Below, piece by piece: positions 2,950-60,258 of a stretch of DNA of 64,000 nucleotides; the first letter of the stretch is position 1, and the number at the start of each line of letters is the position of its first letter. The notes beneath the pieces are model-generated. The model had not been told where the DNA came from. It saw only the letters and a list, made by a program, of their open reading frames with translations, and ran no database searches. The DNA comes from Escherichia coli (GTDB lineage Bacteria > Pseudomonadota > Gammaproteobacteria > Enterobacterales > Enterobacteriaceae). A program made the translations under genes and the position numbers. The stretch lies in NCBI RefSeq assembly GCF_011045215.1, contig NZ_CP049201.1. One strand, written 5' to 3'.

Positions 2950-3243
2950 ATGAGTATTGATCGCACTTCGCCTCTGAAGCCTGTAAGCACCGTTCAACCG
3001 CGCGAAACCACTGACGCGCCGGTAACGAACACCCGAGCGGCAAAAACAACAGCCTCCACCAGCACCAGTGTGACGTTAAGCGACGCGCAAGCAAAACTGA
3101 TGCAACCCGGCAGCAGTGATATCAATCTTGAACGTGTCGAAGCGTTAAAACTGGCGATTCGTAACGGTGAACTAAAAATGGACACCGGCAAAATTGCCGA
3201 TGCGCTGATCAACGAAGCGCAGCAAGACTTGCAGAGTAACTGA
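2950..3243 (+). CDS. flgM: anti-sigma-28 factor FlgM
   Basis: ORF track 97 aa, [25 protein letters not shown]..., recognised as FlgM. Confidence 0.95.
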
Positions 3244-35427: not shown

Positions 35428-35515
35428 GGTGAGGTGTCCGAGTGGCTGAAGGAGCACGCCTGGAAAGTGTGTATACGGCAACGTATCGGGGGTTCGAATC
35501 CCCCCCTCACCGCCA
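35428..35515 (+). tRNA. serX: tRNA-Ser (anticodon GGA)
   Basis: 88-nt sequence GGTGAGGTGTCCGAGTGGCTGAAGGAGCACGCCTGGAAAGTGTGTATACGGCAACGTATCGGGGGTTCGAATCCCCCCCTCACCGCCA; anticodon loop CTGGAAA, long variable arm, GGTTCGAATCC T-arm, CCA end; coordinates anchored to overlapping ORF 35442..35702. Confidence 0.95.
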
Positions 35516-52748: not shown

Positions 52749-54088
52749 TGGTGGATTTAATGGTGAATGAGCAACGGTCGAGTACGGCGGGGAAAGATGT
52801 GCCTGCGGGGTATAAACTGACTGAGGTGGGCGTGATTCCTGAGGATTGGGATTGCGTACCATTTGGTAATCTGTTTAAAACAAACACAAAGAAAAAAAAA
52901 GTCAGCGATTATGAGCTAGTTTCATTTATTGGGATGCAGGATGTTAGTGAAGATGCACAATTAAAAAATAATACTCAACTTCCTTTTAAAGAAGTTAAAA
53001 GTGGTTTTACTTACTTTGAAAAAGGGGATGTTTTATTAGCTAAAATAACCCCTTGTTTTGAAAATGGAAAAGGATGTCATACCGCTGATTTACCTACTAA
53101 TGTAGGTTTTGGGAGTACGGAATTTCATGTATTAAGGGAAAATGAAGACTCCGATTCTCGCTTCATCTATTTTTGGACAACTGATAAAAAATTCAGAGCA
53201 TCACTGGAATCTGAAATGGTGGGAAGTGCGGGACACCGTCGTGTGCCGCTAGTTGCTATAGAAAAATATTTGATTCCATGTCCCCCAAATTTGCAAGAGC
53301 AAAGTGCTATTGCTGATTCATTATCTGATATTAATAATTTTATTCTAGCTCTAGAAAAGCTTATCGTTAAAAAACAAGCCATTAAAACCGCTACTATGCA
53401 GCAACTACTGACGGGTAAAACCCGTTTGCCACAGTTTGCGTTACGCAAAGATGGCTCTGCTAAGGGATATAAAAAGAGCGAGTTGGGGGCGATTCCTGAA
53501 GATTGGGTAGTCACAAGCATTGGACAATTTACTGACTGCTGTGCTGGTGGAACTCCGAGTACTAAAATTTCAGCATATTGGGGAGGAACTCATCCTTGGA
53601 TGAGTTCCGGCGAATTACACTTAAAACAAGTGTATGCTGTAGCCGATTATATAACCGACGAAGGGCTTGTTAACTCCAGTACAAAGTATGTGCCTAAAAA
53701 TTCTGTATTAGTCGGATTGGCAGGACAAGGAAAGACTCGAGGGACTGTAGCAATTAATCGCATTGAATTATGTACTAATCAGTCTATTGCTGCGATTTTC
53801 CCCAGCAAACATCATTCCACAGAATTCCTGTTCTATAACCTCGACAGTCGTTATGAGGAACTGAGAAGTTTATCTACTGGTGATGGGGGGCGTGGTGGGT
53901 TGAATCTTACTATTATCAGGAAATTACATCTTGCATTTCCGCCAAAAGAAGAACAAGCCGCCATCGCCGCCATCCTCTCCGATATGGACAAGGAAATCCA
54001 GATCCTGCAACAGCGTCTGGACAAAACCCGCCAGCTTAAGCAAGGGATGATGCAGGAACTGTTAACCGGGAAAATCCGCTTAATATAG
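52748..54088 (+). CDS. hsdS: type I restriction-modification system specificity subunit HsdS
   Basis: ORF track 52742..54088 (448 aa); ATG at 52748 overlaps the hsdM TGA; two target-recognition-like halves with AT-rich codon usage. Confidence 0.88.
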   Translation: MVDLMVNEQRSSTAGKDVPAGYKLTEVGVIPEDWDCVPFGNLFKTNTKKKKVSDYELVSFIGMQDVSEDAQLKNNTQLPFKEVKSGFTYFEKGDVLLAKITPCFENGKGCHTADLPTNVGFGSTEFHVLRENEDSDSRFIYFWTTDKKFRASLESEMVGSAGHRRVPLVAIEKYLIPCPPNLQEQSAIADSLSDINNFILALEKLIVKKQAIKTATMQQLLTGKTRLPQFALRKDGSAKGYKKSELGAIPEDWVVTSIGQFTDCCAGGTPSTKISAYWGGTHPWMSSGELHLKQVYAVADYITDEGLVNSSTKYVPKNSVLVGLAGQGKTRGTVAINRIELCTNQSIAAIFPSKHHSTEFLFYNLDSRYEELRSLSTGDGGRGGLNLTIIRKLHLAFPPKEEQAAIAAILSDMDKEIQILQQRLDKTRQLKQGMMQELLTGKIRLI

Positions 54089-54100
54089 AAGGGAAAGCAC

Positions 54101-54757
54101 ATGGCTTATGATTACAGCGCCAGCCTCAACCCGCAAAAAGCTCTGATCTGGCGTATCGTCCATCGGGACAATATCCCGTGGATTCTGGATAACGGGCTGC
54201 ACTGCGGCAACAGTCTGGTGCAGGCGGAAAACTGGATCAATATCGGCAACCCGGAGCTGATCGGCAAGCGTGCCGGGCATCCGGTACCTGTCGGAACGGG
54301 CGGGACACTGCATGACTATGTGCCGTTTTATTTTACCCCCTTCTCGCCAATGCTGATGAACATCCACAGCGGGCGCGGCGGCATTAAGCAACGCCCCAAT
54401 GAGGAGATCGTTATTCTGGTCAGCAACTTGCGGAACGTGGCAGCACACGACGTGCCCTTCGTGTTTACCGACAGCCATGCTTACTATAACTGGACCAACT
54501 ACTACACCAGTCTGAATAGTCTGGACCAGATCGACTGGCCCATTTTGCAGGCACGGGACTTTCGCCGCGATCCAGACGATCCGGCTAAATTTGAACGCTA
54601 TCAGGCAGAGGCGCTAATCTGGCAACACTGCCCGATCTCTCTGCTGGATGGGATAATTTGTTACAGCGAAGAGGTCAGGTTACAATTAGAGCAATGGCTG
54701 TTTCAGCGTAATCTAACAATGTCCGTTCACACACGGGCTGGATGGTACTTCTCATGA
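54101..54757 (+). CDS. darT: DarT, DNA ADP-ribosyltransferase toxin (DUF4433)
   Basis: ORF track 218 aa; motifs [18 protein letters not shown] and C-terminal GWY(F) line up with recalled DarT; starts 13 nt after hsdS stop. Confidence 0.88.
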
Positions 54758-55821
54758 TCACATATACACAAGGCAATTTACTGGACGCACCGGTGGAAGC
54801 TCTGGTGAATACGGTTAATACCGTCGGTGTCATGGGGAAAGGCATCGCGTTGATGTTTAAAGAGCGCTTCCCCGAAAATATGAAAGTCTATGCCCTCGCT
54901 TGCAAACAAAAGCAGGTGATCACCGGCAAAATGTTCATTACCGAAACCGGGGAACTGATGGGACCGCGCTGGATTGTTAATTTTCCGACCAAACAGCACT
55001 GGCGCGCTGATTCCCGCATGGAGTGGATTGAAGATGGCTTGCAGGACTTACGCCGCTTTTTGATTGAAGAGAACGTGCAGTCCATCGCCATTCCACCACT
55101 GGGCGCAGGCAACGGTGGTTTGAACTGGCCGGACGTTCGGGCGCAGATTGAATCTGCCCTTGGCGACCTTCAGGACGTTGATATCCTGATTTACCAACCG
55201 ACTGAAAAATACCAGAACGTTGCCAAAAGCACTGGCGTAAAAAAGCTCACTCCCGCCAGAGCCGCCATCGCTGAACTGGTGCGTCGCTACTGGGTATTGG
55301 GGATGGAGTGCAGCCTACTGGAAATCCAGAAACTGGCCTGGCTGTTACAACGCGCCATTGAGCAGCATCAACAGGACGATATCCTCAAACTGCGGTTTGA
55401 AGCTCACTATTATGGCCCCTATGCGCCCAATCTGAACCATCTGCTTAATGCGCTGGACGGCACCTATCTAAAAGCCGAGAAACGCATCCCGGACAGCCAA
55501 CCGCTGGATGTGATCTGGTTTAACGATCAAAAAAAAGAACACGTTAATGCGTATCTGAACAACGAAGCCAGAGAGTGGCTACCTGCGCTGGAGCAGGTCA
55601 GCCAGTTAATTGACGGCTTTGAATCGCCGTTTGGTCTGGAGTTGCTGGCAACCGTAGACTGGTTGCTGAGCCGTGGCGAATGTCAACCAACGCTGGATTC
55701 CGTTAAGGAAGGACTGCACCAGTGGCCTGCGGGCGAACGCTGGGCCAGCCGTAAGTTGAGGCTGTTTGATAATAATAATCTGCAATTTGCCATTAACCGC
55801 GTAATGGAGTTCCATTGCTGA
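54754..55821 (+). CDS. darG: DarG, macrodomain antitoxin (DNA ADP-ribosyl glycohydrolase)
   Basis: ORF track 54742..55821; ATG at 54754 overlaps darT stop (ATGA); N-terminal macrodomain signature [39 protein letters not shown]; about 200-aa C-terminal domain. Confidence 0.88.
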
Positions 55822-55839
55822 GGGTTTAAGGAGCGCCTT

Positions 55840-58800
55840 TTGAGTACCGTGGGCCAGCGCGAACGCGCCACACAGCAGCGTCTGATTCAGTTTTTTGTTG
55901 AAGATTTAGGATACCGCCATCTGAGTCACCGCACCGGGTACACCGGGAACAGCAACATCGACACTAATATACTGAGCGCGTGGCTAAAACGGCGCGGCGT
56001 TAATGATACGTTGATCACCCGGGCGTTGCGGCAACTGGATTCCGCCGCCGCCCTGGGCGAAGGCAAAAAACTCTATTACGCCAATAAAGAGGTCTATCGC
56101 CTGCTGCGTTACGGCGTGAAAGACAAAGAAGGTGCAGGCGAGCAGAACCAAACCGTGTGGCTGATTGACTGGGCCAACCCACAAGCCAATGATTTCGCCA
56201 TCGCCGATGAGGTGACGGTCAAAGGCGAGTACTGCAAGCGCCCGGATCTGGTGCTGTACGTTAACGGCATTGCGCTGGGCGTGATTGAACTTAAGCGTTC
56301 GTCAGTGCACGTCAGCGAAGGTATCCGGCAGAATCTCGATAATCAAAAGAAAACCTTTATCCGCGATTTCTTCACCACTATGCAGTTAGTGATGGCAGGC
56401 AACGATACGCAGGGCCTGCGCTACGGCACCATCGAAACCCCGGAAAAATACTATCTGGAGTGGAAAGAAGATAATCCAGGCGACTATACACATAAACTCG
56501 ACTTTCATTTAAGTCGTCTGTGTAGCAAATCCAGGCTGTTGGATATCGTCCATAATTACATTGTCTTTGATGTCGGGGTGAAAAAACTCTGCCGCCATAA
56601 TCAGTTCTTCGGCGTCGAGGCGGCTAAGCAACATATTGCCCGTCGTGAAGGCGGTATTATCTGGCACACACAGGGATCGGGTAAAAGCCTGACGATGGTC
56701 TGGCTGGCGAAGTGGATCCGTGAAAATGTGCCAAACTCCCGCGTGTTGATTGTGACTGACCGCACCGAACTGGATGAACAGATCGAAAGCGTGTTTATGG
56801 GCGTGAATGAAGATATTTATCGCACCTCCAGCGGCAACGATCTTATCGCAACGCTCAATCATCCTAACCCGTGGCTTATTTGCTCGCTGGTGCATAAATT
56901 TGGTTGTCGCAGCGAAGCTGAAGACAATGCGGCTACCGACGCCTTTATCACCGAATTACAGCAGTCCCTGACGAAAACATTCCGCGCCAAAGGCGATCTG
57001 TTTGTTTTTGTGGACGAGTGCCACCGCACACAATCCGGCAAGCTGCATAACGCCATGACTGCCATTCTGCCGGACGCCCTGTTTATCGGTTTTACCGGCA
57101 CACCGCTGATGAAGAAAGATAAGAAGAAGTCGGTTGAGGTGTTCGGCCCTTATATCCATACCTATAAATTTGATGAAGCGGTGGCCGACGGTGTGGTGCT
57201 GGATCTGCGCTACGAGGCGCGCGATATTGACCAGTATCTGACATCAGAGAAAAAGGTCGATGACTGGTTTGAAGCCAAGACTCGCGGTTTGTCGAATTTA
57301 GCCAGGACCCAGCTTAAGCAAAAGTGGGGATCAATGCAGAAGCTGCTCTCCAGCAAGTCGCGGCTGGAGCAGATCGTTAACGACATTTTGCTGGATATGG
57401 ATACCCGTCCACGCCTGATGGACGGGCGCGGCAACGCCATGCTGGTATGCAGCAGTATCTATCAAGCCTGCAAGGTTTACGAGATGTTCAGCCAGACCGA
57501 GCTGGCAGGAAAAGTAGCGATTGTGACCAGCTATCGCCCCGATGCCGCCAGCATCAAAGGCGAAGAAACGGGCGAAGGGTTAACGGAGAAACTCTCTAAA
57601 CACGCCACCTATCGTAAAATGTTGGCTGACTATTTTGAACAAAGTGAAGAGAAGGCCGCCGCACGCATTACCGAGTTCGAGCGGGAAGTGAAACAACGTT
57701 TTATTGAAGAGCCGGGGCAAATGCGCCTGCTTATCGTGGTGGACAAGCTGTTGACTGGCTTTGACGCGCCGTCCGCCACCTATCTCTACATTGATAAAAC
57801 CATGACCGACCATACGCTGTTTCAGGCGATTTGTCGGGTGAACCGGCTGGACGGTGAGGATAAAGAGTATGGCTATATTATCGATTATAAAGATCTGTTC
57901 CGTTCGCTGGATAAAGCGATTACCGATTACACCACGGGCGCGTTTGATGATTACGATCGGGACGATGTGGCCGGGTTGCTGAAAGACAGGCTGGAGCAGG
58001 CGCAACTGGATCTCGACAGCGCGCTGGAGATGGTTCGCAGCTTATGTGAGCCCGTCAAAACCCCGCGCAGCCTGCAGGACTATCAGCACTATTTTTGCGG
58101 TAAATCAGGAGAGAATCAGACTTCGTTAAACGAAAAAGAGGCGCTGCGCCTGACATTTTACCAGTGCGTCGCCCGTCTGCTACGCGCTTATGCCAGCATC
58201 GCCAATGAAATGCCGGAAGCAGGCTACACTGCCGAAGAGGTAGAGAGCATTCGCGCCGAAGTCGCTGAATTCGAAAAACTGCGCTATGAGATTAAGCTGA
58301 CCAGCGGCGATCTTCTGGATATGAAGCGCTTTGAACCCGCTATGCGTCATTTACTGGATATGTATGTTCGCGCCGATGGTAGCGAAGTGCTGATGGATTT
58401 TGAAGAGTTAAGTCTGATTGAACTGATTGTCGAGAAAGGCTTGGCGGCGACCGTCGCCCTGCCGGATGATATCCGTAATAATCAGGATGCGATGGCGGAA
58501 ACCATCGAAAACAACGTGCGCAAAACCATCGTGGATGAAAACCCGGTTAACCCAAAATACTATGGACGCATGTCGCAGCTGCTGGATGAACTGATTACCC
58601 TTCGCCGACAAAATGCGCTCAATTATCAGCAGTATCTGGAACGTATCCGCGATTTGTGTAAACAGGTCATCCGCCCGGAGCAAACCGCCGGAGCGTGCTA
58701 CCCTGCCACCATGGATACACAAGCAAAGCGCGCCTTCTATGACAACTTCGGCCACGACGAGGTACTGGCGACCCGCATAGATACGACAATTCGCTATACC

Positions 58801-58935
58801 AAAAGGGCAGAGTGGATTGGCGATCGTTTTAAAGAACGGGAAATTGCCAACGCATTACGTGAAGAGACCGCCAGCTATAATATTGATATTGATGAGGTGA
58901 TAGCGCTTGCCCGTCAGCAGAAGGAATATCACTGA
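55840..58935 (+). CDS. hsdR: type I restriction enzyme endonuclease/translocase subunit HsdR
   Basis: ORF track 1031 aa; nuclease-like DLVLYVNGIALGVIELK and helicase DECH (FVFVDECHRTQ) motifs read; starts 19 nt after darG. Confidence 0.92.
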   Translation: MSTVGQRERATQQRLIQFFVEDLGYRHLSHRTGYTGNSNIDTNILSAWLKRRGVNDTLITRALRQLDSAAALGEGKKLYYANKEVYRLLRYGVKDKEGAGEQNQTVWLIDWANPQANDFAIADEVTVKGEYCKRPDLVLYVNGIALGVIELKRSSVHVSEGIRQNLDNQKKTFIRDFFTTMQLVMAGNDTQGLRYGTIETPEKYYLEWKEDNPGDYTHKLDFHLSRLCSKSRLLDIVHNYIVFDVGVKKLCRHNQFFGVEAAKQHIARREGGIIWHTQGSGKSLTMVWLAKWIRENVPNSRVLIVTDRTELDEQIESVFMGVNEDIYRTSSGNDLIATLNHPNPWLICSLVHKFGCRSEAEDNAATDAFITELQQSLTKTFRAKGDLFVFVDECHRTQSGKLHNAMTAILPDALFIGFTGTPLMKKDKKKSVEVFGPYIHTYKFDEAVADGVVLDLRYEARDIDQYLTSEKKVDDWFEAKTRGLSNLARTQLKQKWGSMQKLLSSKSRLEQIVNDILLDMDTRPRLMDGRGNAMLVCSSIYQACKVYEMFSQTELAGKVAIVTSYRPDAASIKGEETGEGLTEKLSKHATYRKMLADYFEQSEEKAAARITEFEREVKQRFIEEPGQMRLLIVVDKLLTGFDAPSATYLYIDKTMTDHTLFQAICRVNRLDGEDKEYGYIIDYKDLFRSLDKAITDYTTGAFDDYDRDDVAGLLKDRLEQAQLDLDSALEMVRSLCEPVKTPRSLQDYQHYFCGKSGENQTSLNEKEALRLTFYQCVARLLRAYASIANEMPEAGYTAEEVESIRAEVAEFEKLRYEIKLTSGDLLDMKRFEPAMRHLLDMYVRADGSEVLMDFEELSLIELIVEKGLAATVALPDDIRNNQDAMAETIENNVRKTIVDENPVNPKYYGRMSQLLDELITLRRQNALNYQQYLERIRDLCKQVIRPEQTAGACYPATMDTQAKRAFYDNFGHDEVLATRIDTTIRYTKRAEWIGDRFKEREIANALREETASYNIDIDEVIALARQQKEYH

Positions 58936-59651
58936 TGCCAATCATGCAAATAGGCTCGTTACACTTGCTGGTCAACCGTAAGGCGATTAAGAATCTGCAT
59001 ATCAGCGTGCTGCCGCCTGATGGCAAAGTCCGCGTTTCAGCGCCGGAACATATGACGGAGACGGCGATTCGTATGGCGGTTGCTTCACGCTTTCGCTGGA
59101 TCAGAAAACAGCAGCAGGATTTCGCCAGACAGCCTCGTCAATCAGAGAGGGAAATGGTCAGCGGAGAGTGCCACTATCTTTGGGGCCGAAGATATCGCCT
59201 ACTTGTGATTGAGCGTCACGGGCGTCACGAAGTAAAAGTTGCGGGAAATAATAAGCTCCAGCTTTATGTTCAACCGGGAACCCGTGATGAAAATAAGGCA
59301 TTGGCGTTAAGTGAATTTTATCGACATGAACTAAAACAGCAGGTGGCTAAGCTTCTACCTGAATGGCAAGACCGAATCGGTGTTCCCCTAACATTCTGGG
59401 GCATCAAAAAGATGAAAACCTTTTGGGGCACCTGTAACACTACAACAAAACGAATCTGGCTCAATCTGGAGCTAATTAAGAAGCCGCCGGAGTGTCTGGA
59501 GTATATTCTGGTGCATGAACTGGTTCATCTTCTGGAACGTCACCATAATGCTCGCTTCCGGTTGCATATGGATCGGTTTATTCCTGACTGGCGTGAGCGT
59601 CGGGATTTGTTAAATAATATGCCGTTAGCGTTTGAGGCATGGGAGTATTGA
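58935..59651 (+). CDS. DUF45/YgjP-like zinc metallopeptidase-domain protein
   Basis: ORF track 238 aa; HEXXH motif ILVHELVHLLERHH; ATG overlaps the hsdR stop by 1 nt. Confidence 0.8.
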   Translation: MPIMQIGSLHLLVNRKAIKNLHISVLPPDGKVRVSAPEHMTETAIRMAVASRFRWIRKQQQDFARQPRQSEREMVSGECHYLWGRRYRLLVIERHGRHEVKVAGNNKLQLYVQPGTRDENKALALSEFYRHELKQQVAKLLPEWQDRIGVPLTFWGIKKMKTFWGTCNTTTKRIWLNLELIKKPPECLEYILVHELVHLLERHHNARFRLHMDRFIPDWRERRDLLNNMPLAFEAWEY

Positions 59652-60258
59652 TTGAGCCTGTAACTGTTTTTTGTCCATAAATTAACCTTCATTTGATGCT
59701 GGATAGAACATATCAAAATCAGACAATTACACAAATCTATGTACAGGCTCAACTCCTGCCATGGAACGTAGTACTCACCAATAAGTAAGCATCAATACGG
59801 CGCTCCGTTAACGCTTACTAGCATGGTTATCTCCTTAAAAAATTGAGGCGACAACTATGCTGACACAGGGGGTTACTCACCGATCTCCTTCACGGTAATA
59901 CGCAGTTCTTCAGAACCCGCCTCCGATACCAGCCTGGCGGTCGCCCCGGCGCAAGCAAAATAAATCGACCATTGTCAGACTGCGATCGTTCGGATGCCCC
60001 GCCACCGACGCATCAGTATGAGTTAACCGAAACGATACAAAATTGCCTGAGAATCATTACGCTGGCTGATGGAAGGCACACCAAAAGCCTCTGCACAGAA
60101 CGATGTTCGGCAACAACAGAAACATGATTGCGTTCATGGCAATAGTCATTCGTACCGTTACAGGCGGTATTGATTTATTACAGACAAGCGGTACATATAT
60201 GTACCGCTTGGTTAAGTAAAAAAACAGATATGAACGCTATTATGTTCATTCTACTTTA

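What the first reader, a model, noticed from the sequence alone, without database searches (positions are those of the whole stretch)
59652..60258. About 600 bp of non-coding-looking DNA with possible gene remnants after the RM operon
No ORF of 60 aa or more lies here. The minus strand contains a 30-codon hydrophobic ORF (MTIAMNAIMFLLLPNIVLCRGFWCAFHQPA) and a C-terminal-looking open frame (...GATARLVSEAGSEELRITVKEIGE-stop) with no start. These may be decayed genes marking a junction between island modules.
Basis: inference. Interest (0 to 1): 0.25.

Follow-up and report, generated by a model that had tools for sequence, protein, structure and literature searches.

The report
Nested insertion-sequence scars at island junction
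The 600-bp "empty" stretch is an ordinary recombination scar made of broken ends of five insertion sequences plus the last 44 codons of a plasmid relaxase gene, and it joins a restriction-modification module to a plasmid-derived outer-membrane-protein gene.

Summary
In detail: no sizeable ORF lies inside 59652-60258, and both minus-strand frames exist as described. Neither frame is a decayed gene.

From left to right the region resolves into:
- 59654-59750: IS1414 (IS256 family) left end, inverted.
- 59751-59818: ISEc23 (IS66 family) right end.
- 59821-59871: left end of an unnamed IS3-family element, inverted.
- 59872-59904: outer 33 bp of the ISEc12 (IS21 family) right terminal repeat.
- 59905-60038: non-coding 3' tail of a second IS66-family element.
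- 60039-60173, plus strand: last 44 codons and stop of a MOBP-type TraI relaxase.
- 60174-60258: hairpins 3' of the Ail/Lom gene.

The "C-terminal-looking" frame runs through the IS66 tail and ends inside the IS21 repeat. A codon-phase test shows that the tail is conserved as DNA, not as protein. The 30-codon hydrophobic ORF is antisense to the traI remnant, and its start and stop codons are missing in intact plasmid traI genes.

Every IS piece is the right-hand part of its element. That fits nested insertions followed by one leftward deletion ending 2 bp after the intact M48/YgjP stop codon. A crossover inside the IS66 tail (about 59955) then joins an EC5654/O157-type left half to a 52F4/porcine-ETEC-type right half.

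This is a genuine module junction, but an ordinary one of low interest.

The parts
58935..59651 (+). Last gene of the R-M operon: an M48/YgjP-like metallopeptidase, intact at its 3' end.
   Evidence: Pfam PF01863 at 1.4e-61 covers residues 25-228 of 238 and profile positions 5-206 of 207. Annotated as M48 family metallopeptidase in EC5654.
59654..59750 (-). Left end of IS1414 (IS256 family), inverted: terminal repeat, 5' UTR and about the first 9 transposase codons. It starts 2 bp after the M48 stop codon.
   Evidence: 96-97% identical to the ends of IS1414 copies in L015 (p948 of H10407), L014 and L018. The N-terminal codons and terminus ...GTACAGGCTC line up by eye in the sequences, and the reference N-terminus is.
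59751..59818 (+). Right end of ISEc23 (IS66 family): last 12 codons of tnpC (LLPWNVVLTNK-stop, TAA at 59786-59788) and the terminal repeat ...CGCTTAC.
   Evidence: 94% identical to L016 and L019, where this sequence ends intact ISEc23 copies. C-terminal peptide is identical.
59821..59871 (-). Left end of an unnamed IS3-family element, inverted: outer end, 5' UTR and only the orfA start codon (CAT at 59823-59825).
   Evidence: 98% identical to L017 and L018. The same sequence precedes the transposase start in the full copies L020-L023.
59872..59904 (+). Outermost 33 bp of the right terminal repeat of the IS21-family element ISEc12 (...TTACTCACCGATCTCCTTCACGGTAATACGCA).
   Evidence: 100% identical to L004, L005 and L006. 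In L005 and L006 it follows istB and abuts the interrupted Ail/Lom and ypfH genes.
59905..60038 (+). Last 134 bp of the non-coding 3' tail of a second IS66-family element, with its terminus ...GAGTTAACCGAAACGATAC at 60038. It contains the crossover and a private +G at 59955.
   Evidence: Aligns with the sequence downstream of tnpC in L002, L008, L009, L010 and L011. The terminal 20 bp pair 16/20 with the left repeat of the 52F4 copy. No codon-phase signal.
59873..59953 (-). It is a spurious frame spanning the IS66 tail and the IS21 repeat. RefSeq annotates it as a 41-aa hypothetical protein in EC5654 and as a 59-aa variant in K_EC180.
   Evidence: No Pfam match.
60039..60173 (+). Remnant of a TraI/MobA(P) relaxase gene: the last 44 codons plus the stop, with one internal stop (TGG to TGA at codon 4). 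It is cut at its 5' side exactly at the IS66 terminus.
   Evidence: tblastn with plasmid TraI gives 69-71% identity over 45 positions, E about 1e-16, with stop codons co-located. DNA is 80-85% identical to plasmid traI 3' ends.
60057..60149 (-). It is a shadow frame antisense to the traI remnant.
   Evidence: In intact plasmid traI genes the same antisense frame is open but lacks this ORF's ATG (Ile there) and its stop (Gln there). No Pfam match.
60152..60170 (+). Terminator-like hairpin at the end of the traI remnant.
   Evidence: Terminator scan. Present in the plus-strand fold.
60185..60210 (.). Perfect palindrome (CAAGCGGTACATATATGTACCGCTTG) between the convergent traI remnant and the Ail/Lom gene. 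Probably a bidirectional terminator element.
   Evidence: Self-inverted blast match. 11-bp stem in the folds of both strands, z about -5.
60222..60256 (-). Hairpin followed by a U-run directly after the Ail/Lom stop codon. Probably the intrinsic terminator of Ail/Lom.
   Evidence: Fold of 60165-60262 (-): -26.8 kcal/mol, z = -5.35, 0 of 200 shuffles fold as well. The consensus scan did not call it, because its stem has too few G-C pairs.
60259..60816 (-). Ail/Lom family outer-membrane beta-barrel gene, intact. It is the right-hand neighbour of the scar.
   Evidence: Pfam PF06316 at 3.5e-23. RefSeq annotation in L002, L003 and L014.

Best explanation
The region is a non-functional scar built in steps.

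1. A plasmid-derived segment carried the 3' end of a MOBP traI relaxase gene convergent with an Ail/Lom gene. An IS66-family element had inserted into traI 44 codons before its stop.
2. Four further elements then inserted, each inside the previous one. An ISEc12-like IS21 element went into the IS66 tail. An IS3-family element went 33 bp inside the IS21 right end. ISEc23 went just after the IS3 orfA start codon. IS1414 went 68 bp from the ISEc23 right end.
3. One deletion (or an equivalent illegitimate join) removed everything to the left of a point about 97 bp inside IS1414. That left only the right-hand portion of each nested element and placed the stack 2 bp after the stop codon of the M48/YgjP gene that ends the type I R-M/DarTG operon.
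4. Homologous recombination between two diverged IS66 tails, with a crossover at about 59955-59975, joined an EC5654/O157-type left arm to a 52F4/porcine-ETEC-type right arm carrying traI'-Ail/Lom.

Shown here: the identity, coordinates and orientation of each fragment, the intact flanking genes, and the hybrid nature of the tail. Inferred: the order of events and the single-deletion model.

The only likely present-day activity is transcription termination between the convergent R-M operon and Ail/Lom, by the hairpins at 60152-60256.
For: - Fragment identities: IS1414 end 96-97%; ISEc23 end 94% with an identical TnpC C-terminus; IS3 end 98%; ISEc12 repeat 33/33, abutting interrupted genes in L005 and L006; IS66 tail aligned to five other copies, with IRL/IRR pairing 16/20.
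- traI remnant: tblastn E about 1e-16 with a co-located stop. Conjugative plasmids of the pUMNK88_Hly type carry intact traI - vapBC - Ail/Lom at 92% identity.
- All five IS pieces are right-hand portions in window orientation.
- The M48 gene is intact.
- Hybrid tail: 59905-59954 is 50/50 identical to EC5654 and 39/50 to 52F4; 59998-60038 is 41/41 identical to 52F4 and 28/41 to EC5654.
- No complete E. coli genome carries the joined arrangement.
- The left arm occurs in 46 genomes and the right arm in 25-32.
- The tail is not coding: tnpC substitutions by codon position are 43/25/90 (p about 5e-10), while the tail gives 9/9/11 and 8/11/17.
- Hairpin folds have z about -5.
Against: - No genome was found that keeps the full nest, so the order of insertions and the single deletion are inferred from geometry alone.
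- The 52F4 IS66 copy has no matching 8-bp target duplication, so that copy has also been rearranged.
- Three private differences (+G at 59955, A>G at 59967, C>T at 59973) sit in the crossover zone. They could mean the window carries a third tail allele rather than a simple two-parent recombinant.
- IS names come from RefSeq annotation of matching copies, not from ISfinder.
- Two bases (59819-59820) and 59652-59653 are unassigned.
Confidence: 0.9

Rival explanations
1. One reading: the two minus-strand frames are remains of ordinary protein-coding genes (a small hydrophobic protein and the C-terminus of a larger protein) that decayed at the junction.
For: Both frames exist. RefSeq annotates the equivalent of the second frame as a hypothetical protein of 41 aa (EC5654) or 59 aa (K_EC180).
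Against: - The second frame lies in an IS66 tail and ends inside an IS21 terminal repeat.
- There is no codon-phase bias in the tail, while tnpC next to it shows a strong one.
- The frame is broken by stops in several tail copies.
- The first frame is antisense to a traI remnant, and its start and stop codons are absent in intact plasmid traI genes.
- Neither has a Pfam match.
Confidence: 0.03
2. The IS66 tail encodes a genuine small accessory protein on the strand opposite tnpC (the frame is open for more than 110 codons in L008 and L009), and the window carries a frameshifted, truncated copy of it.
For: The minus-strand frame is long, open and similar across diverged tails (L008 and L009 have no stops). 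The tail is more conserved than tnpC, at about 14% against 27% divergence between L009 and L010.
Against: - Substitutions are evenly spread over the three phases.
- Stops interrupt the frame in L002, L003, L010 and L011.
- The frame simply continues as the antisense shadow of tnpC.
- The conservation is better explained by cis-acting subterminal repeats (CAGTACTTC, three copies).
- No Pfam family matches.
Confidence: 0.04
3. The region is a functional non-coding element, for example a small RNA or a type I toxin-antitoxin pair in which the 30-codon hydrophobic peptide is the toxin.
For: The peptide is short and hydrophobic like type I toxins. Strong hairpins lie nearby.
Against: - No Rfam hit and no promoter-like site on either strand.
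- The sequence is the 3' end of traI, with the ORF limits not conserved in plasmids.
- The segment occurs in only 32 of 5426 genomes and always with this Ail/Lom gene.
- The hairpins sit where the terminators of two convergent genes are expected.
Confidence: 0.02

Closest known systems
M48 - IS debris - CDI junction of E. coli EC5654 (NZ_CP095086) and O157-type genomes
   Same: Window 53399-59997 is 99.5% identical to it: hsdS, darT, darG, hsdR, M48, then the same IS1414/ISEc23/IS3/IS21 stack and the start of the IS66 tail.
   Different: In EC5654 the IS66 tail is of the L009 type and is cut about 20 bp before its terminus. It is followed directly by a terminator-like hairpin, a 124-aa ORF and cdiA. 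The window switches to the 52F4-type tail at about 59955 and continues into traI'-Ail/Lom.
IS66 - traI' - Ail/Lom segment of E. coli 52F4, C5 and porcine ETEC (e.g. K_EC180, pheV-type island)
   Same: Window 59955-61075 is about 98-100% identical to it: the same IS66 terminus, traI remnant, palindrome and Ail/Lom gene.
   Different: 52F4 keeps a whole IS66-family element (tnpA, tnpB, tnpC, itself hit by an IS110) to the left. K_EC180 keeps about 250 bp of tail next to a sulfatase pseudogene. Neither has the R-M operon or the four other IS fragments.
Conjugative plasmids of the pUMNK88_Hly type (MOBP relaxase)
   Same: They carry the intact counterpart: a full-length traI whose last 44 codons match the remnant (69-71% at protein level, 80-85% at DNA level) and a convergent Ail/Lom gene, with 92% identity over the matched pieces.
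   Different: traI is complete, and a vapBC toxin-antitoxin pair lies between traI and Ail/Lom. There is no IS66 insertion.
Nested IS 'graveyards' at the borders of genomic islands and on virulence plasmids (general knowledge; e.g. p948 of ETEC H10407)
   Same: Truncated IS ends from several families are stacked inside one another. IS1414, IS21-family and IS66-family fragments are adjacent in p948 as well.
   Different: The combination, order and breakpoints differ. The stack in the window is specific to the M48-linked lineage, found in 46 genomes.

Membership tests
IS256 family (IS1414) | Sequence identity to the terminal repeat and 5' region of annotated IS1414 copies, ending where those copies end. 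| tested here: met
   59654-59750 is 96-97% identical to L015, L014 and L018, with the terminus ...GTACAGGCTC at the same point. This is a fragment only. The transposase beyond about codon 9 is absent.
IS66 family (ISEc23) | Match to the tnpC 3' end and the right terminal repeat ending ...GCTTAC (GTAAGC... in inverse). | tested here: met
   59751-59818 is 94% identical to L016 and L019. The TnpC C-terminus LLPWNVVLTNK* is identical, and the terminus coincides with the end of intact copies.
IS3 family (unnamed element) | Match to the left end and 5' UTR up to the start of an orfA/orfB transposase gene with a programmed frameshift. | tested here: met
   59821-59871 is 98% identical to L017 and L018. 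Full copies are annotated as IS3 family with a programmed frameshift. The exact outer terminus is not fully defined.
IS21 family (ISEc12) | Terminal repeat ending in ...CA next to istA/istB in intact copies, abutting the interrupted target DNA. | tested here: met
   33/33 identity with the ISEc12 right end in L005 and L006, where istA/istB precede it and split genes follow it. Only the outer 33 bp are present in the window.
IS66 family (second element, 52F4/ISEc49-like) | Position downstream of tnpC in intact copies, and a terminal repeat complementary to the left repeat. | tested here: met
   Alignment A2 with five copies. IRL/IRR pairing is 16/20. The 8-bp target duplication could not be shown.
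MOBP (TraI/MobA(P)) relaxase gene | Protein-level similarity in one frame with a co-linear stop codon. | tested here: met
   tblastn gives 69-71% identity over 45 positions, E about 1e-16, with the stop at the same place. Only the last 44 codons are present, with one internal stop. The relaxase domain itself is absent, so this is a pseudogene fragment.
Protein-coding gene (the 41/59-aa 'hypothetical protein' of RefSeq) | Substitutions between diverged copies concentrated at third codon positions, and the frame kept open. | tested here: not met
   Tail substitutions by phase are 9/9/11, 8/11/17 and similar (not significant), against 43/25/90 in tnpC. Stops occur in four of six copies.
Type I toxin (small hydrophobic peptide with antisense RNA) | A conserved small ORF with its own start, stop and promoter, plus a matching RNA family. 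| tested here: not met
   The start and stop are not conserved in plasmid homologues. No promoter-like site. No Rfam or Pfam match.
Rho-independent terminator | Stable hairpin followed by a U-run, just 3' of a gene. | tested here: inconclusive
   A hairpin plus U-run lies directly after the Ail/Lom stop, and a perfect palindrome lies nearby, with z about -5.3. The consensus scan called only the plus-strand hairpin at 60152-60170. There are no transcript data.

The most novel reading that the evidence does not exclude
The IS3-family fragment in the scar is one instance of a target preference. This unnamed IS3-family element seems to insert at a fixed distance (about 10 nt) from a GATC(T/G) motif inside the terminal repeats of IS21-family elements. 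That was seen in four different IS21-type repeat variants, plus one simple insertion in yiaY at a look-alike site (GTGATCTCCTT, duplication GCGAT). If this is general and undescribed, one IS would be homing on the ends of another IS family.
Probability: 0.4. Interest if true: 0.25.

Novelty: already known. Interest (0 to 1): 0.08.

Why it matters
It matters mainly for clean annotation.
- The gap should be annotated as IS remnants plus a traI pseudogene fragment, not as hypothetical proteins. RefSeq currently-aa and 59-aa ORFs inside an IS66 tail.
- It documents how a type I R-M/DarTG defence module became linked to a plasmid-derived Ail/Lom gene and to CDI orphan toxin modules. The route was IS nesting, deletion and recombination between IS66 tails.
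- It gives a lineage marker: the exact stack is shared by 46 complete E. coli genomes.

No new biology is implied.

Tried and rejected
- Rfam scan of 58500-61500 at a permissive threshold gave only two chance-level hits, both outside the region.
- The sigma-70 promoter scan found no sites.
- Pfam on the 30-aa, 41-aa and 59-aa peptides found nothing. The 40-aa traI remnant peptide gave only a chance-level hit, to Paralemmin.
- An exact-pattern scan of the species-representative genome collection for the window's private allele (+G at 59955) found no match.
- I first took 59872-59904 plus 59905-60004 to be a single repeated element. Contexts showed two different IS families abutting at 59904/59905.
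- I considered that the long open minus-strand frame in IS66 tails might be a real gene. The codon-phase test rejected this.
- I looked for a target-site duplication around the 52F4 IS66 copy to prove a simple insertion into traI, and found none.
- Two literature searches, on IS3 insertions into IS21 ends and on IS66/IS679 structure, returned nothing directly relevant.

Full report
**Observation**

- No ORF of 60 aa or more lies inside it. The only one touching it is a 70-aa TTG ORF (59540-59752, minus strand) that is mostly antisense to the preceding gene.
- The 30-codon ORF sits at 60057-60149 (-).
- The start-less frame ...GATARLVSEAGSEELRITVKEIGE* is present on the minus strand. By my count from the sequence, its stop codon is at 59873-59875.
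- Rfam finds nothing in the region, and a consensus scan finds no sigma-70-like promoter.

**Surroundings**

To the left is a plus-strand operon: hsdS, darT, darG, hsdR and an M48/YgjP-like metallopeptidase (58935-59651). It is annotated this way in the 99.5%-identical stretch of E. coli EC5654. The peptidase is intact: Pfam PF01863 covers residues 25-228 of 238.

To the right, all on the minus strand, are:
- an intact Ail/Lom outer-membrane gene (60259-60816; PF06316);
- a 77-aa ORF (61082-61315);
- an orphan CdiA C-terminal piece with a PT-VENN domain (61312-62208).

Beyond about 62.3 kb the window matches a conserved arcA (arginine deiminase) region.

**Two halves with different relatives**

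Megablast of 59400-60500 against 5426 complete E. coli genomes found no record covering 80% of it. EC5654 and many O157 genomes match up to 59997. A different, small set (52F4, C5, porcine ETEC such as K_EC180) matches from about 59900 onward. The region is therefore a real junction.

**Anatomy, left to right**

1. **59654-59750: left end of IS1414 (IS256 family), inverted.** It is 96-97% identical to annotated copies. It comprises the terminal repeat, the 5' UTR and about nine transposase codons, and it begins 2 bp after the M48 stop codon.
2. **59751-59818: right end of ISEc23 (IS66 family).** It is 94% identical to intact copies. It has an identical TnpC C-terminus (LLPWNVVLTNK-stop) and the terminus ...GCTTAC.
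3. **59821-59871: left end of an unnamed IS3-family element, inverted.** It is 98% identical to the reference copies and retains only the orfA start codon.
4. **59872-59904: outer 33 bp of the ISEc12 (IS21 family) right terminal repeat.** It is identical at 33/33 positions. In L005 and L006 this sequence follows istB and abuts the split Ail/Lom and ypfH genes.
5. **59905-60038: last 134 bp of the non-coding tail of a second IS66-family element.** In intact copies this tail follows tnpC (alignment A2; contexts). The terminal 20 bp pair 16/20 with the left repeat of the 52F4 copy.
6. **60039-60173, plus strand: last 44 codons and stop of a TraI/MobA(P) relaxase.** tblastn with plasmid TraI proteins gives 69-71% identity, E about 1e-16, with the stop codons co-located. 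The remnant begins exactly at the IS66 terminus, so that IS had inserted into traI.
7. **60174-60258: sequence 3' of Ail/Lom.** It holds a hairpin plus U-run directly after the stop codon and a perfect 26-nt palindrome (60185-60210). The folds have z about -5. A plus-strand terminator-like hairpin covers the traI stop (60152-60170).

The "C-terminal-looking" frame runs through the IS66 tail, and the IS21 terminal repeat supplies its last 11 codons. RefSeq annotates equivalents as 41-aa and 59-aa hypothetical proteins.

The minus-strand frame is open for more than 110 codons in some tails, so I tested coding potential directly.
- Between diverged copies, tnpC substitutions pile up at third codon positions (for example 43/25/90, p about 5e-10).
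- Tail substitutions are spread evenly (9/9/11, 8/11/17; not significant).
- The tail is less diverged than tnpC, at about 14% against 27% between L009 and L010.

The tail is thus conserved as DNA. That is consistent with cis-acting subterminal repeats: CAGTACTTC occurs three times. It is not conserved as protein.

The 30-codon hydrophobic ORF is antisense to the traI remnant. In intact plasmid traI genes the same antisense frame has Ile instead of its ATG and Gln instead of its stop. Neither peptide hits Pfam.

**How it arose (inferred)**

All five IS fragments are the right-hand portions of their elements in window orientation. This is what a nest of insertions would leave after one leftward deletion starting inside the innermost element. 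The nest would be IS66 in traI, IS21 in the IS66 tail, IS3 in the IS21 end, ISEc23 in IS3, and IS1414 in ISEc23. The deletion ended 2 bp beyond the M48 stop codon.

The stack is 100% conserved in EC5654 and covers at least 80% of the query in 46 genomes, so it is an inherited structure.

The window's IS66 tail is a hybrid.
- 59905-59954 is 50/50 identical to EC5654 but only 39/50 to 52F4.
- 59998-60038 is 41/41 identical to 52F4 but only 28/41 to EC5654.
- Three private changes lie in between: +G at 59955, A>G at 59967 and C>T at 59973.

Recombination between two diverged IS66 tails is the simplest way to join the R-M/IS-stack arm to the traI'-Ail/Lom arm. The private allele was not found in the species-representative genome set.

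**Intact counterparts**

Conjugative plasmids of the pUMNK88_Hly type carry a full traI, then vapBC, then a convergent Ail/Lom gene, at 92% identity over the matched pieces. The Ail/Lom module is therefore plasmid-derived.

**Function and verdict**

Nothing suggests that the stretch does anything beyond possibly terminating the convergent transcripts at 60152-60256.

It is a junction, and it does contain a gene remnant. That remnant is traI on the other strand, the rest is non-coding IS ends, and the two named frames are artefacts. This is a well-known kind of structure, so interest is low.

**Side observations**

The IS3-family element was found next to four different variants of IS21-type terminal repeats, always about 10 nt from a GATC(T/G) motif. 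It was also found once as a simple insertion in yiaY, at a site containing GTGATCTCCTT, with a GCGAT duplication. In L020 the unit of IS21-type end, IS3 and IS21-type end is flanked by a CCTGG duplication. This hints at a target preference. Two literature searches found no description of it, but I did not test it systematically.

Noticed in passing
window 54101-55821: A DarT/DarG (DNA ADP-ribosyltransferase / glycohydrolase) toxin-antitoxin pair sits inside the type I R-M operon, between hsdS and hsdR. The M48/YgjP-like peptidase is the last gene. Annotated this way in the 99.5%-identical EC5654 locus.
   Followed up: partly
window 59821-59904; L017, L018, L020-L023: An unnamed IS3-family element abuts four different IS21-type terminal-repeat variants at the same relative position, about 10 nt from a GATC(T/G) motif. 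It also has one simple insertion in yiaY at a look-alike site (GTGATCTCCTT, duplication GCGAT). In L020 the whole unit is flanked by a CCTGG duplication. This may be a target preference for IS21-family ends.
   Followed up: partly
L002, L008, L009, L010, L011 (IS66-family tails); window 59905-60038: The roughly 300-350-bp tail after tnpC in this IS66-family group is more conserved than tnpC (about 14% against 27% divergence between L009 and L010). It carries three CAGTACTTC repeats and shows no codon-phase bias. RefSeq nevertheless annotates small hypothetical proteins in it (41, 47 and 59 aa).
   Followed up: yes
L014 (pUMNK88_Hly) 2245-2277 and 3021-3053; window 60131-60163: In the plasmid, the same roughly 33-bp sequence appears to lie on both sides of the vapBC pair inserted between traI and Ail/Lom. 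This is inferred from two blast matches overlapping on the window; the plasmid coordinates are estimated and the two copies were not aligned to each other. It would suggest that vapBC arrived or left by recombination at a short repeat. The window has the vapBC-less arrangement.
   Followed up: no
window 61082-62316: An orphan CDI toxin module on the minus strand: a 298-aa ORF with a PT-VENN pre-toxin domain (61312-62208), followed by a 77-aa ORF that looks hydrophobic by eye and has no Pfam hit (61082-61315; possibly the immunity gene). Window 62042-62316 is 92% identical to part of cdiA in EC5654, and neighbouring genomes annotate CdiA-o11 there.
   Followed up: partly
window 35428-35515: The only tRNA gene in the window, tRNA-Ser(GGA). 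It may be the integration site of the island that holds the R-M, Ail/Lom and CDI modules. The right island border seems to lie near 62.3 kb, against an arcA (arginine deiminase) region.
   Followed up: no
window 59653-59750: A roughly 98-bp sequence 90.8% identical to this IS1414 end appears to be very widespread. 5382 of 5426 complete E. coli genomes match some part of the 220-bp query, and most best matches fall in the 90-95% identity band. In the listed rows it is usually annotated as a hypothetical protein, which suggests an old, fixed IS256-family remnant in the core genome.
   Followed up: no
window 59955, 59967, 59973: Three differences private to the window (+G, A>G, C>T) cluster exactly at the apparent crossover between the two IS66-tail types. 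The allele had no exact match in the species-representative genome collection.
   Followed up: partly
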